Source: an uncultured Methanobrevibacter sp. (GTDB lineage Archaea; Methanobacteriota; Methanobacteria; Methanobacteriales; Methanobacteriaceae). From it: 64,000 bases of DNA. Of this stretch, positions 27,788 through 33,031 are shown piece by piece. Below the pieces are notes generated by a model, which did no database searches, had not been told where the DNA came from, and saw nothing but the letters and a program-made list of their open reading frames with translations. Position numbers and translations under genes: made by a program. Location of the stretch: NCBI RefSeq assembly GCF_947170395.1, contig NZ_CAMVTE010000007.1, forward strand, positions 4,576-68,575, written 5' to 3'. Within the stretch, counting starts at the first letter, position 1; each line of letters starts with the position of its first letter.

Positions 27788-28399
27788 ATGATGTCTCAAC
27801 TTGTGGAAATATTATTCGATGATTTAAAAGGTAATTTAGGAAAACAATACATATTATCCCTTTTAGATAGTAATAACCAAGAACCTGTCCATGGGAAAAC
27901 TCGTTTAATGAAGGAATTGTTTTTCATATCTTTAAATGTTCCTGAATTAAGTAAAGAATTTGAATTTGAAGCAGACAACTATGGTCCAAGCAGTGATGTG
28001 ATAATGGGATACATAGATGATATGAGTCAAATGAAATTAATTGCTGCTGAAAAAAGAAGCCATGGAAATGTAACTTACAGTTTAGGTGAATATGGAAAAA
28101 AATTCCTCGAACAAGAAAATTTAGACCTTGATTATGAATTAATCTCTGAAATGAAAATATTATGTCATGGTATAACTAATGATGAACTGTTGGCATTAAC
28201 TTATTTTTCATTTCCGGAAATGACTGAAGAATCATTGGTAAAAAATAAAATATGGGCTAAACGTCAAAAGTTGGCATTAGGATTGTATAGTAAAGGCAAA
28301 GTTAGTCTTGAAAAAGCGGTCGAAATCTCCGGATTAAATTATAGGGAATTCCTAGATTTATTAAATTCTAGAAATATAAAAGTGGAGTTAGTATTATGA
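27788..28399 (+). CDS. SocA/Panacea(YwgA)-like N-domain fused to UPF0175-like HTH; putative antitoxin
   Basis: GKTRLMKELF...FEADNYGPSS N-terminus; LALGLYSKGKVSLEKAVEISGLNYREFLDLL C-terminus; AAGGAGG RBS. Confidence 0.65.
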   Translation: MMSQLVEILFDDLKGNLGKQYILSLLDSNNQEPVHGKTRLMKELFFISLNVPELSKEFEFEADNYGPSSDVIMGYIDDMSQMKLIAAEKRSHGNVTYSLGEYGKKFLEQENLDLDYELISEMKILCHGITNDELLALTYFSFPEMTEESLVKNKIWAKRQKLALGLYSKGKVSLEKAVEISGLNYREFLDLLNSRNIKVELVL

Positions 28400-28902
28400 A
28401 ACTAATGGACACTTCAAGCATGGTACTATTTTTAGAGTTTATTTCAGAATATGAATTTCTAATTAAATTTTCTGAATCAGGTGAAGTAATGATTATCACC
28501 GCACAAGTAGAAGAAGAATACAATGAGAAAAAAGATTCATCGATACAAAATCCAAATTATAATTTAGATAAACTATTAGAAAAAGAAATAATTATTAAAG
28601 AAACCTGTGAAATTAATGAAATATTCAAAAGAAGATACTTTAAATTAGGAATCGGTGAAAAAAGTATCATGAGTCTGGCTTTAGAATATCAAGAACATGG
28701 CTATGAATGTTATTGTGTTCTTGATGACAAATATGCTAGAGATGTTTGCCAAAAATTGGAATTGAATGTCAAAGGATCTATTGGATTACTAGTGCTTCTA
28801 AAAGAAAAAGGATTACTTGAAAATCCAAATGAAGTTGCCAATAAAATTCGCGAATCTCCATTCAGAATATCAAATACAGTATTGGAGGTATTAAATGCAT
28901 AA
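28396..28902 (+). CDS. PIN-domain nuclease (DUF3368-like)
   Basis: MDTSS, VEEE, LGIGE, LDDKYAR, GSIGLL; 4 nt overlap with upstream gene. Confidence 0.8.
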   Translation: MKLMDTSSMVLFLEFISEYEFLIKFSESGEVMIITAQVEEEYNEKKDSSIQNPNYNLDKLLEKEIIIKETCEINEIFKRRYFKLGIGEKSIMSLALEYQEHGYECYCVLDDKYARDVCQKLELNVKGSIGLLVLLKEKGLLENPNEVANKIRESPFRISNTVLEVLNA

Positions 28903-30066
28903 AGTTAAAGTATCACATCAAGAAATAGATGAAGATTTATTCATTCGTTCTGAAAAACTTAAAATCAATAACAAAACATTAAGAACTCCAATAAAAGCAG
29001 TTAACATGCCTAGCTTAAGGAATGATGTTCCTTTAAACCCTATTGTTAAAGGTGTGAATGAAATCTTTAAAACATTCAAATACAAGGATATTAAAGGATA
29101 TTGCACTGGTGAAAAAGATGAAACAAATATTTATAAAAGCATCAATACTCCATTAAATAAAACTGATAGGAATACTGAAGTCAACATATGTTTCATTCAA
29201 TTGCCAGATTCACAATTGCCTCAAGACAATGAAATTGATTTTATAGCTAATGTTTCTTATGTTTACTCAGATATTACTCCATTACCCTTAGTTCAAAGTT
29301 TGTTTAAAGGTAATGATGGTATTAAAGATTTGGGAGTGTTAATGAGTTCATGCAAAAATGTATAGACTCGATTAACAGATTAAATAATAAACCTATACTT
29401 GGAATTATTCCGGGAACTATCCCCTCTCCATTAGTGGGATTCCTGATTGATTTTTATTATAAGAATGATATCACTTCATTTGCTTTTGATTTCCAAGGAA
29501 GAATCCATAAAAACTATGAAGTTCAAATCAGGGCTATGATTACTAAAATTTTAGAATTGGACATCTCCAACGAGTCTTTCCTATACTCCTGCAATACTCA
29601 AAGAGGAAAAGTAAGCAAAGGATCAACTATCATTAAAGGCAATGATATTGCGGTTTATAATTATGGTTTTGATGTGATGGGGGATTCTCATGTCAAATCT
29701 AAATGGCCCCCTGATGTTGCAAGAAAACTGAATGAACGTGCAGGTAATGATTTAAATATCAGATTATTTAATTCAGATGATTATGGGCATTATAAATTTT
29801 CAGATTTGGATGCTATTAAAAAAATGTATCCATTTAATGAAACTGCAATTACTTTAGATTGCTTTGACCCAGCTATCATAAAGCAAAGGGCAACAGATTC
29901 TCAGAAGTTGTTCAATACTGAACGTGTTGGATTGGAATTAATGAAATATAAACACATGTTAAACCGAAGTGAATCAACTTATGAGTATATCAATACTAAA
30001 GAACAAATTAGGGATTCTCTAGATAAATTTAGAGTGTATAGATCTAATTTGGATAAACTATTATAA
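28895..30066 (+). pseudogene. Frameshifted ~390 aa protein, possibly a TGT-like (tRNA-guanine transglycosylase fold) TIM barrel
   Basis: ORFs 28895-29365 and 29350-30066 join by adding one A at ATTAAAGATTT (~29321-29331); N-terminal RSEKLKINNKTLRTP, GFDVMGD and FNTERVGLEL recall TGT segments. Confidence 0.5.
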
Positions 30067-30674: not shown

Positions 30675-32131
30675 TTTAATATCGGATTAATATAAAATAT
30701 ATATTAAATTTAAAAAACCAGCGGATGTTAATGTTGGACAATTTAATATATCAAATGCATTATCATTATTAGTTTTTAATAAAAAAGTCAATAATTAGTA
30801 TTGGAGGAAATTCATGACAAAAAAATTCATTATTAGAGATGATGATAATCCTAAAATTATTCACAATGATTTGTCAGATTATCTTGATGTTGAATCTATT
30901 TTAAAAAAGGATTATGAATATATTTATGAATCTATTCTAAATGAAGGATTTATATTGGAAAATAAGTTAGGGGATGTTTTTAAAGAAATATTATTTGAAA
31001 ACAAAGTCGTAGGGTTTGCTTTTTATGAATTAAATTCTGCAACGGATTTTGTTTTAAATGAAATTTATGTTTTACCGGAATTTAGAGGCAATTCATTATT
31101 TTTATTGGAAATTTATATACTTCTTGCAGCAGGCAATTCATTAAGTATTTTGCAGCCAACAAAAAATCTTGTTGAAATTTTGATTCATTATGGATTTGCA
31201 TCTAAATTAAGTAAAAATATTGTAGCTAGTGCCATTAGCTTTGATTTTAAAAATGAAGATATCTTATCCAATTCTAATGAAGAATTTGATGATGAGCAGA
31301 TAATGTCTTCCAATATTTATGATTTAGATATTCGCTCCAGTTTATTTCTTATGGATATTTCAACTCCAGGACGAAATATTATTTATTATCACGAAGAACT
31401 TGAAAATGATTTTAATGAGTATGGAAAACGTAAATCATTAAATGATAGTTATTTTAATGAAATCAAAGATTTATTCCTGCAGAATTCTGAAGAATTTGCT
31501 CAAATAATGTTTGATTTAAAAGATAAATTGCCGAAGTCTCAATTGGGATTTGATATAGTTGTAGGGCATGGCGATGAATTTTCAGATTATATGCAAGATA
31601 TGATTGATGATGGAATCATTTCTAAAAATAAAGCTCAGGAAATTAAGGATGTTTTAACAGAAGAATATGAACGTGGTGAAGTTACAGATGATGGAATAAT
31701 CACCCGTTTTAACTTTTTCCTAAACGATTTGGATTCACAAATAGACATATTGGATATTTTTCAGTTGAATACAAAGATATGTCCATATTGTTACAACCCC
31801 ATAAATTTATCTGATGAATCATGTCAAATCTGTGGTTATAATCTGTTATATGAGCCTGATTGATGATGATTTTGAAGAGGGATTCTCATTGATAAAGAAA
31901 ATATTTCTTCTTCCCTGTCGGAGTTATTTGAAAGATAAAATAGAAAATACAAACTTGAAAATATTAATTATGGAAAAGAGTATCCCACAAGCTATGATTT
32001 GGATCAATTTAAAATTTTAAAATTCATTGATGAATATCATAATTTGGATTTGGCATTTATTATAATTAATAATTTAAAATTGCCTTAGGATATATTTTCT
32101 GAATTATTATTTAGTGAAGAATATGTTACTT

Positions 32132-32390
32132 TTCAACTACCCCGACCTGTAGAGGTCGTGGATTGTGAGTTATTTTCACAATCCGCTAGTTGAATAGCCT
32201 CAGACTTATTATTAATAAGTCTACGTTATTGAGAAATATTATAGTTACCTATAGATGTTTAAGCCTAGTCTGTAGCTCTAAGGTGGGCGATTAAACAGTT
32301 CTGAGATGGTAAGAACAGTGTTGCTCACATATAAAACTCTCAAATAACATTGGCGAAGGCTAAACTTACCCAGGAATAGGGGGTAAACTT
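32132..32390 (+). ncRNA. HEARO / IscB omega-RNA scaffold
   Basis: TTCAACTA pairs with TAGTTGAA (32187-32194); hallmark blocks AGCCT, CTACGTTA, CCTAGTC..TAGCTCT, TTAAACAGTTCT..GAACAGTG, AACATTGGCGAAGG; 3' end approximate. Confidence 0.85.
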
Positions 32391-32468
32391 TATATTAGTT
32401 TACAAACTAAACAAAACGGCAATTCCTCCTCGACCTAAAAGAGGTCGAGGTATCCTTGCCAAATATAG
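32132..32468 (+). mobile_element. Non-autonomous IS200/IS605 (IscB-type) element lacking iscB and tnpA
   Basis: Matching end hairpins CGACCT-GTAG-AGGTCG (32143-32158) and CCTCGACCT-AAAAG-AGGTCGAGG (32428-32450) inside GGCAA...TTGCC; GC-richer than flanks; interrupts a reading frame. Confidence 0.85.
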
Positions 32469-33031
32469 ATGAATTTTTTAATCAGGTTTGATTTCGATGA
32501 TTTTAACAGATTTCATGATGTTAATGATGGGGATTTCAACCAAATAGTTTCTAAATATCTTGATGAGCATATTAAACTGGCTAAGAAGAAAAGAGATTTT
32601 GACTATTTGATAAATTGTTTTTCTGCTAAAGCAACATTTTGTGTATTGGATGAAAATCTAGATGATGCGCTAAACTGGGAAATGATGAGATTTTGTTTAG
32701 CAATTAATCCAGTATATTTAGATAAAGAATATTATAATTTTTACTTACCTTTAAACCAAGAAAATATAGATAATTTAAGGTTATTGAAAGATGAATTTTC
32801 AATTAAAATATTAATGGATTCATTTGAAAAATCTTGGGATTATTTTAAGTTTAATAGGGGCATTGTTTCAAAAGAGGATGCTAAAGTTATTCTTGAAAGA
32901 CTGCTAAATAATCATGAGGATTTGAAATTAATTAATAAAGAAATTAAAGGAAAATACTTTGGGAAAAATCGCAGTGACGATACTCTTCAGATGAATTTGA
33001 ATGATTACTTTAAATGAATGGAGTTGGTTTT

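What the first reader, a model, noticed from the sequence alone, without database searches (positions are those of the whole stretch)
32112..32473. Stand-alone IscB omega-RNA (HEARO) mini-transposon with readable guide and TAM in a methanogen
Seen: a 337 bp insert (32132-32468) with a full HEARO-like fold. TTCAACTA pairs with TAGTTGAA, hairpins GGATTGTGA/TCACAATCC and AGACTTATTA/TAATAAGTCT are present, and GTTATTGAGA pairs long-range with TCTCAAATAAC before ATTGGCGAAGG. The IS200/IS605 end hairpin follows almost at once, with no iscB ORF between. Both ends share the CGACCT..AGAGGTCG hairpin, and ATGAA follows the right end. Known: IscB omega-RNAs take their 5' guide from flanking DNA and use a 3' TAM (ATGA-type TAMs are reported for some IscBs, from memory); Y1 TnpA recognises such end hairpins. 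Inference: the guide is about TAGTGAAGAATATGTTACTT (32112-32131), the empty site is ...GTTACTT|ATGAA, and the element depends on IscB and TnpA supplied in trans. The pairing is intact while the host gene has decayed, which suggests recent insertion or selection on the RNA.
Basis: partly seen in the sequence, partly recalled or inferred. Interest (0 to 1): 0.8.

Follow-up and report, generated by a model that had tools for sequence, protein, structure and literature searches.

The report
Guide-RNA mini-transposon that erodes its flanks
A 337-base gene-less jumping element that keeps only the guide-RNA scaffold of a Cas9-ancestor nuclease sits in four places in this methanogen genome; the kind is known, but three of the four copies replace 230-536 bases of host DNA, likely through repeated rejoining of the element's ends.

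Summary
Confirmed. Window 32132-32369 is a full-length HEARO/omegaRNA (126.8 bits, cut-off 83). The 337-bp element has 4 copies (at least 99.4% identical) at different sites, each followed by ATGAA. It is an iscB element with the nuclease gene deleted. The genome holds two intact iscB elements with the same ATGAA target, but their omegaRNAs are only 74% identical to this one. No Y1 tnpA was found (assembly 89% complete); related ends flank tnpA elsewhere in the genus. The minis occur in at least 4 of 103 genomes. Stand-alone omegaRNAs and PATEs are published, and this scan found them before on other DNA.

The extra finding: relatives carry the predicted empty site, but the window lacks the next 230 bp, up to a second ATGAA. 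Of 12 sites that could be scored, 8 show deletions of 115-972 bp at the element ends and 4 are clean. One genome pair shows a deletion growing on the guide side after insertion, which rewrites the guide. TnpA-mediated rejoining is the likely cause; IscB-driven spread of the deletions is untested. No expression data were obtained.

The parts
32112..32131 (+). Predicted guide (host flank); the last 16-17 nt would be functional
   Evidence: Position 5' of the omegaRNA scaffold; guide length from PMC9640706 passages; followed by ATGAA in element-free relatives. No close guide+ATGAA match elsewhere in G000: best seed 6 nt, at least 4 mismatches in 16
32132..32468 (+). 337-bp non-autonomous IS200/IS605 element (iscB deletion derivative)
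   Evidence: 4 copies with different flanks; matches full iscB elements only over the first ~285 and last ~50 nt
32132..32369 (+). HEARO / omegaRNA scaffold
   Evidence: RF02033, 126.8 bits, full model; pseudoknot-capable 32262-66/32357-61, with compensatory changes in the resident iscB elements (sequence)
32132..32165 (-). Y1 right end: TTGAA cleavage motif, subterminal hairpin 32140-32161, guide tetranucleotide CAAT
   Evidence: Guide and cleavage tetranucleotides co-vary (TGAA/CAAT vs TTAA/AAAT) in 18 of 18 elements
32383..32403 (+). Conserved 7-bp hairpin that in full elements holds the iscB start codon in its loop; likely the 3' end of the omegaRNA
   Evidence: 7 of 7 pairs in 29 of 31 elements; the last pair is T-A in 18, G-C in 6, A-T in 5
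32395..32416 (+). Remnant of the first codons of iscB, then the internal deletion junction
   Evidence: Comparison with full elements
32417..32468 (-). Y1 left end: hairpin 32428-32450, guide tetranucleotide GATA (32451-32454 on +)
   Evidence: Fits target TCAT in 16 of 18 elements; same end family as tnpA-coding elements in the genus
32469..32473 (+). ATGAA: TnpA target (TTCAT) and predicted IscB TAM
   Evidence: 4 of 4 minis and 3 of 3 iscB ends in G000; GstIscB TAM is TTCAT
30814..32131 (+). 5' part of the interrupted host gene (about 700 aa in G004); 349-aa open frame, then stops
   Evidence: tblastn 87%
32469..33017 (+). 3' part of the host gene (182-aa open frame from a native Met); the 230 bp before it, coding a SAP domain, are deleted

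Best explanation
This is a recently spread, protein-less IS200/IS605 element made by internal deletion of an iscB transposon; it keeps both transposase-binding ends and a complete omegaRNA scaffold, is likely moved by a Y1 TnpA encoded elsewhere, and would give a guide RNA from host read-through transcription that an IscB made in trans could use to cut the empty site after excision. Shown: identity, copies, ends, ATGAA target, parentage, empty alleles and flank deletions. Inferred: TnpA mobilisation (about 0.9), transcription (about 0.7), use by the resident IscB (about 0.45). The 230-bp loss most likely arose after insertion, when an element end was rejoined at a second ATGAA, either directly by TnpA or by a local hop followed by recombination between the two copies. 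A guide-side event of this kind replaces the guide.
For: Rfam hit. Four copies with 0-2 differences from the window copy. Two iscB ORFs of 411 and 419 aa pass NF040563 at 373 and 368 bits (cut-off 175) and keep RuvC and HNH motifs. End-guide co-variation in 18 of 18 right ends and 16 of 18 left ends. Y1 tnpA over the cut-off in 20 of 103 genus genomes, some with the same end family. Elements lie in the sense of the upstream coding DNA in 16 of 16 callable cases (14 of 30 unclear) against 66% for random ATGAA sites, as published for iscB. Deletions at 8 of 12 scorable sites; ATGAA directly follows the guide-side junction in the relative at 4 of those 8. G086 and G094 share one insertion and TAM-side junction, and G086 lacks 781 more bp exactly at the guide-side end. 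Both window junctions are in contigs of other runs, and element depth is about 4 times flank depth in X1 and X4.
Against: No tnpA in G000 by profile or tblastn, nor a hit in G107. The resident IscB is from the other clade: omegaRNA 74% identical, and IscB of the mini's parent clade is about 54% identical. G107 (92% complete) has two minis and no iscB hit. No RNA evidence. The window copy has a mismatch in its right-end hairpin (position 11). At 4 of 8 deletions the relative does not show exact ATGAA at the guide-side junction (AGGAA, GTGAA, TTGAA, ATGCC), including one relative 98% identical. Three of the 8 lie in one host gene and are not independent. Four iscB-family sites, one TnpB element and one 48-bp remnant are clean.
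Confidence: 0.75

Rival explanations
1. Passenger scaffold: the element moves by TnpA, but its omegaRNA is not used by any IscB and persists only because it overlaps the right end and the copies are young.
For: Clade mismatch with the resident IscB; no iscB hit in G107; no RNA evidence; compensatory changes among minis could be inherited from parents.
Against: All 8 minis keep the whole scaffold and break just after the start-codon hairpin, and they have at least two origins (one clade rejected, p-AU 6e-10). Only about 35 nt are needed as a TnpA end, and 48-49 bp remnants exist in the same genome.
Confidence: 0.3
2. Deletion drive: each guide-side deletion to an upstream ATGAA makes a guide that matches the still-intact parent allele, so IscB cuts the parent and gene conversion spreads the deletion.
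For: New guide plus ATGAA is intact in the undeleted allele at 4 of 8 sites; deletions are frequent and nested in one gene (115, 896, 972 bp).
Against: The G086 junction is AGGAA in a 98% identical relative, which fits the TnpA guide rule but not an exact TAM; samples are small; 3 of 5 scorable full-length elements are clean.
Confidence: 0.2
3. Assembly collapse: two nearby copies were merged and the short DNA between them was dropped.
For: G000 has no contig under 3.2 kb; the missing pieces are not elsewhere in it; no read or contig spans a whole copy.
Against: Depth ratio about 4, not 7, in X1 and X4 (a rough measure); the pattern recurs in independent assemblies and in 1.5-kb elements; it would need double insertions at most sites.
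Confidence: 0.07
4. Deletions came first, by microhomology repair between ATGAA repeats (for example after an IscB cut), and the element entered or returned afterwards.
For: Both endpoints are ATGAA at several sites.
Against: G086 versus G094 shows growth of a deletion at the end of an already shared insertion; no element-free deleted allele was seen.
Confidence: 0.1

Closest known systems
HEARO RNA (Rfam RF02033) = IscB omegaRNA; stand-alone omegaRNAs (Altae-Tran 2021, seen only through commentary PMC11610941)
   Same: Full-length scaffold, 5' guide from the flank, no linked iscB.
   Different: Methanogen host; shown here to be a multi-copy mobile unit with both ends; function in trans untested.
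ISGst IscB element and PATEs of Geobacillus stearothermophilus (bioRxiv 10.1101/2023.03.14.532601; passages and section 5 read)
   Same: TTCAT/ATGAA target, omegaRNA at the right end, TAM/TEM-guide co-variation, tnpA in trans, sense-orientation bias, protein-less derivatives.
   Different: Their PATEs are described for ISGst1 and ISGst5 and as needing TnpB in trans; donor joints are scarless; the word 'deletion' does not occur in the main text.
ISC transposons with N|ATGA target (Kapitonov 2016, PMC4810608; passages)
   Same: iscB-only non-autonomous elements, ends shared with TnpB elements, insertion 5' of ATGA, no duplication.
   Different: Insertions are reported as precise; here 8 of 12 scorable sites lost host DNA.
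PATEs and terminal-only remnants of Haloquadratum (PMC3119063; passages)
   Same: Archaeal protein-less IS605 derivatives; 52-bp fused-end remnants like the 48-49 bp ones in G000; tnpA often missing or broken.
   Different: No omegaRNA described; their 'deletion-coupled insertions' are untargeted and not tied to IS605 target motifs.

Membership tests
HEARO / IscB omegaRNA (RF02033) | Covariance-model match above the gathering score over the full model | tested here: met
   126.8 vs 83 bits, positions 1-211
HEARO / IscB omegaRNA (RF02033) | Scaffold 5' end at the transposon right end, guide from the flank | tested here: met
   Four copies diverge exactly before 32132
HEARO / IscB omegaRNA (RF02033) | Expressed RNA | tested here: inconclusive
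   Two RNA runs gave only 32-34 nt matches from other organisms
HEARO / IscB omegaRNA (RF02033) | Binds IscB and guides TAM-dependent cleavage | not testable with these tools
   Needs biochemistry
Full ISC/iscB element | iscB ORF downstream of the omegaRNA | tested here: not met
   Only about 7 codons remain
Non-autonomous IS200/IS605 derivative (PATE) | Subterminal hairpins at both ends, no terminal inverted repeats | tested here: met
Non-autonomous IS200/IS605 derivative (PATE) | Guide tetranucleotides matching the cleavage and target tetranucleotides | tested here: met
   18 of 18 right ends, 16 of 18 left ends. Guide position from PMC3201880; the position-by-position pairing rule is recalled
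Non-autonomous IS200/IS605 derivative (PATE) | Fixed 4-5 nt target, no target duplication | tested here: met
   ATGAA in 4 of 4; the clean copy on C16 has abutting flanks in 3 relatives
Non-autonomous IS200/IS605 derivative (PATE) | No protein-coding gene; several copies; empty sites in relatives | tested here: met
Non-autonomous IS200/IS605 derivative (PATE) | Insertion without loss of host DNA | tested here: inconclusive
   Met at 1 of 4 copies in G000; the other 3 have deletions that are probably later events
Non-autonomous IS200/IS605 derivative (PATE) | Cognate Y1 TnpA available in trans | tested here: inconclusive
   None in G000 (88.8% complete); present with related ends in the genus

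The most novel reading that the evidence does not exclude
IscB-family elements in this methanogen genus ratchet away host DNA. TnpA rejoins the guide-side end to an upstream ATGAA, the omegaRNA thereby gains a new guide that matches the undeleted parent chromosome, IscB (in trans for the minis) cuts that parent, and gene conversion fixes the deletion: a natural self-reprogramming deletion drive.
Probability: 0.2. Interest if true: 0.75.

Novelty: new member of a known kind. Interest (0 to 1): 0.42.

Why it matters
The element itself extends a known kind to a gut methanogen and gives a natural 337-bp test case, with four readable guides, of whether orphan omegaRNAs are used in trans and across IscB clades. 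The flank deletions matter more. IS200/IS605 movement is described as precise, yet two thirds of scorable sites here lost 115-972 bp ending at target motifs. That changes how guides and empty sites are read from genomes: the present guide need not mark the original insertion. If IscB favours the deleted alleles, it would be an RNA-guided route to gene loss in archaea.

Tried and rejected
Resident Y1 tnpA: none by PF01797 or by tblastn with 8 genus TnpA proteins. Guides aimed at other host sites: none of 6 guides has a close match next to ATGAA in G000 (best seeds 6-8 nt). Viral or plasmid carriage: 0 pattern matches in viral contigs, no phage match, 4 partial plasmid matches at 77-80%. The sigma-70 promoter scan was at chance level and does not suit archaea. 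The X6 contig with the 230-bp allele is about 90% identical and is treated as another species, not a sister strain. Sites L048 (759 bp, weak alignments) and L114 (repeat region) were left out of the deletion count; 6 of 20 elements had no two-flank match. My first right-end guide test mis-picked the hairpin for the 8 TGAA-type elements and was redone. A single origin for all 8 minis was rejected; for the 7 without L098 it was not (p-AU 0.45). L095 and L096 are minis lacking the right end and were not counted. Altae-Tran 2021 was not held; Weinberg 2009 was not read.

Full report
Observation. The window holds one Rfam match at gathering level: HEARO (RF02033) at 32132-32369, full model, 126.8 bits against 83. 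A possible pseudoknot (32262-66 with 32357-61) is intact and differs by compensatory changes in the resident iscB elements (sequence).

Copies and boundaries. The genome (G000, 2.25 Mb, 70 contigs, 88.8% complete) has four 337-bp copies: the window copy, C7:72184, C19:33225 and C16:38698, with 0-2 differences from the window copy. Upstream flanks all differ, and ATGAA follows in 4 of 4; ATGAA occurs at 0.3% of positions. The HEARO model finds 6 matches: these four and two at C11 and C2 that lead into intact iscB genes (NF040563 at 373 and 368 bits). A third, partial iscB lies on C58. All three iscB ends are followed by ATGAA. The mini matches full elements over its first ~285 and last ~50 bases only, and keeps about 7 codons of the iscB start, so it is an internal deletion derivative.

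Ends. On the bottom strand the element reads as a standard IS200/IS605 unit: target TTCAT, left-end hairpin with guide GATA, right-end hairpin with guide CAAT and terminal TTGAA. Guides 5' of the hairpin foot are described in PMC3201880 (passages); the position-by-position pairing rule is recalled. Across 18 elements the right-end motif and guide co-vary (TGAA/CAAT in 8, TTAA/AAAT in 10; 18 of 18), and the left guide fits in 16 of 18. No Y1 tnpA was found in G000. It is over the cut-off in 20 of 103 genus genomes, and some of those elements have the same end family. A TnpB element in G000 shares the hairpin sequence and uses target TTTAT.

Family. HEARO matches occur in 19 of 103 genus genomes. 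Of the 27 non-G000 loci examined, four are minis (G107 twice, G113, G053), one is truncated, one ends at a contig edge and 21 lead into iscB. Metagenomes add two complete and two broken minis. Seven minis group with a clade whose IscB is about 54% identical to the resident one; L098 belongs to the resident clade, and a single origin of all 8 is rejected (p-AU 6e-10). All 8 break just after a 7-bp hairpin that holds the iscB start codon in full elements (all pairs kept in 29 of 31; last pair T-A 18, G-C 6, A-T 5). This suggests that the whole RNA is retained, though kin are not independent. Of 30 elements, 16 lie in the sense of upstream coding DNA, 0 antisense and 14 unclear, against 775:396 for random ATGAA sites. 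This bias is published for iscB and explained by transcription from outside the element (bioRxiv 2023.03.14.532601, section 5). Against use in trans: the resident omegaRNA is 74% identical, G107 has two minis and no iscB or tnpA hit, and no RNA evidence was obtained.

Empty site and deletions. But they have 230-231 more bases before the second ATGAA where the window resumes. A contig of run X6 shows the same (skips 337, 230 letters between). The lost piece codes a SAP domain and is not elsewhere in G000. The other copies: C7:72184 lacks 505-506 bp (G006, G004; three other relatives lack the whole gene and are uninformative), C19 lacks about 536 bp (G009 only; repetitive end), and C16 is clean in three relatives. 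Both full iscB elements, the TnpB element and a 48-bp remnant in G000 are clean. Over 20 iscB-family elements, 14 had both flanks in an element-free relative: 8 show deletions (230, 505, 536, about 350, about 159, 972, 115, 896 bp), 4 are clean and 2 were too weak to call. By type, 6 of 7 minis and 2 of 5 full elements are deleted. At 4 of the 8, the relative has exact ATGAA directly after the guide-side junction; the others have AGGAA, GTGAA, TTGAA or ATGCC. Internal ATGAAs are often skipped. Three of the 8 lie in one host gene: G086 and G094 share an element (96% identical) and its TAM-side junction, and G086 lacks a further 781 bp exactly at the guide-side end, with 98% identical flanks. 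So deletions can grow after insertion, on the guide side. Assembly collapse is unlikely: both window junctions are in other runs and element depth is about 4 times flank depth in X1 and X4, although no record spans a whole copy.

Mechanism. Most likely TnpA peels the element out as a single-stranded circle and pastes it beside TTCAT; host transcription makes guide plus scaffold; IscB cuts the empty joint and recombination restores the element, as shown for Geobacillus. For this element these steps are inferred. The deletions need a second target-recognition event: either the left-end guide picks a TTCAT beyond the right end and TnpA joins the right end there, or a copy hops locally and the two copies recombine. 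I cannot separate these. After a guide-side deletion the new guide matches the parent allele wherever the junction is ATGAA, so IscB could favour the deleted allele; the AGGAA junction shows that this is not required.

Known and new. Stand-alone omegaRNAs are reported by Altae-Tran 2021 (seen only in commentary PMC11610941, part 1 of 2), PATEs needing nuclease in trans by the Geobacillus preprint, N|ATGA targets by PMC4810608 (passages), and fused-end remnants by PMC3119063 (passages). This scan noted similar minis in other genomes. Excision is described as without DNA gain or loss. Four searches for adjacent or flanking deletions by this family listed no paper on it; I saw listings only, and subscription literature is not held. 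Adjacent deletions by IS607 are recalled from memory. One search for Methanobrevibacter with IscB gave a single unrelated listing. Verdict: a real new member of a known kind, with a recurrent flank-deletion pattern that deserves a test. Interest 0.42.

Noticed in passing
G000 C10:59255-59302 (L147) and C61:279-327 (L148): 48-49 bp single-hairpin remnants of TnpB-type elements (left and right ends fused), followed by ATAAA; the C10 one is a clean insertion against G049.
   Followed up: partly
G000 C55:2812-4212 (L145): Intact 1401-bp tnpB-only element sharing the hairpin sequence with the mini; further ends of this family lie at contig edges (C1, C11, C19, C45, C60; a second type at C34, C37, C38), so a tnpA could be unassembled.
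   Followed up: partly
window 32383-32403: Co-varying hairpin just beyond the Rfam model; in full elements it holds the iscB start codon in its loop and may couple omegaRNA folding to IscB translation.
   Followed up: partly
G000 C2:95737 (L008) and C7:72184 (L003): The C2 iscB element sits between a ribosome-binding site and the start codon; the C7 mini's guide-side junction is at a stop/start boundary.
   Followed up: partly
runs X2, X4, X6: Other junctions of the element appear in these samples, including one that lacks the last two bases and the ATGAA, so sites are polymorphic among strains.
   Followed up: no
L067 (G080:C48:43407): omegaRNA with about 10 iscB codons and no left end: a truncated remnant rather than a mobile mini.
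   Followed up: no
window 31885: Runs X1, X4 and X6 have one extra G here, so one frame lesion in the host gene differs among strains or is an assembly error.
   Followed up: no
window 28895-30066: Two overlapping ORFs (156 and 238 aa) look like one gene split by a frameshift, next to a small PIN-like toxin-antitoxin-type pair at 27788-28902 (labels from inspection only).
   Followed up: no
G000 C10 near 59196 (L147): About 4 kb present in four to five relatives is missing about 57 bp from the 48-bp remnant, not at its boundary.
   Followed up: no
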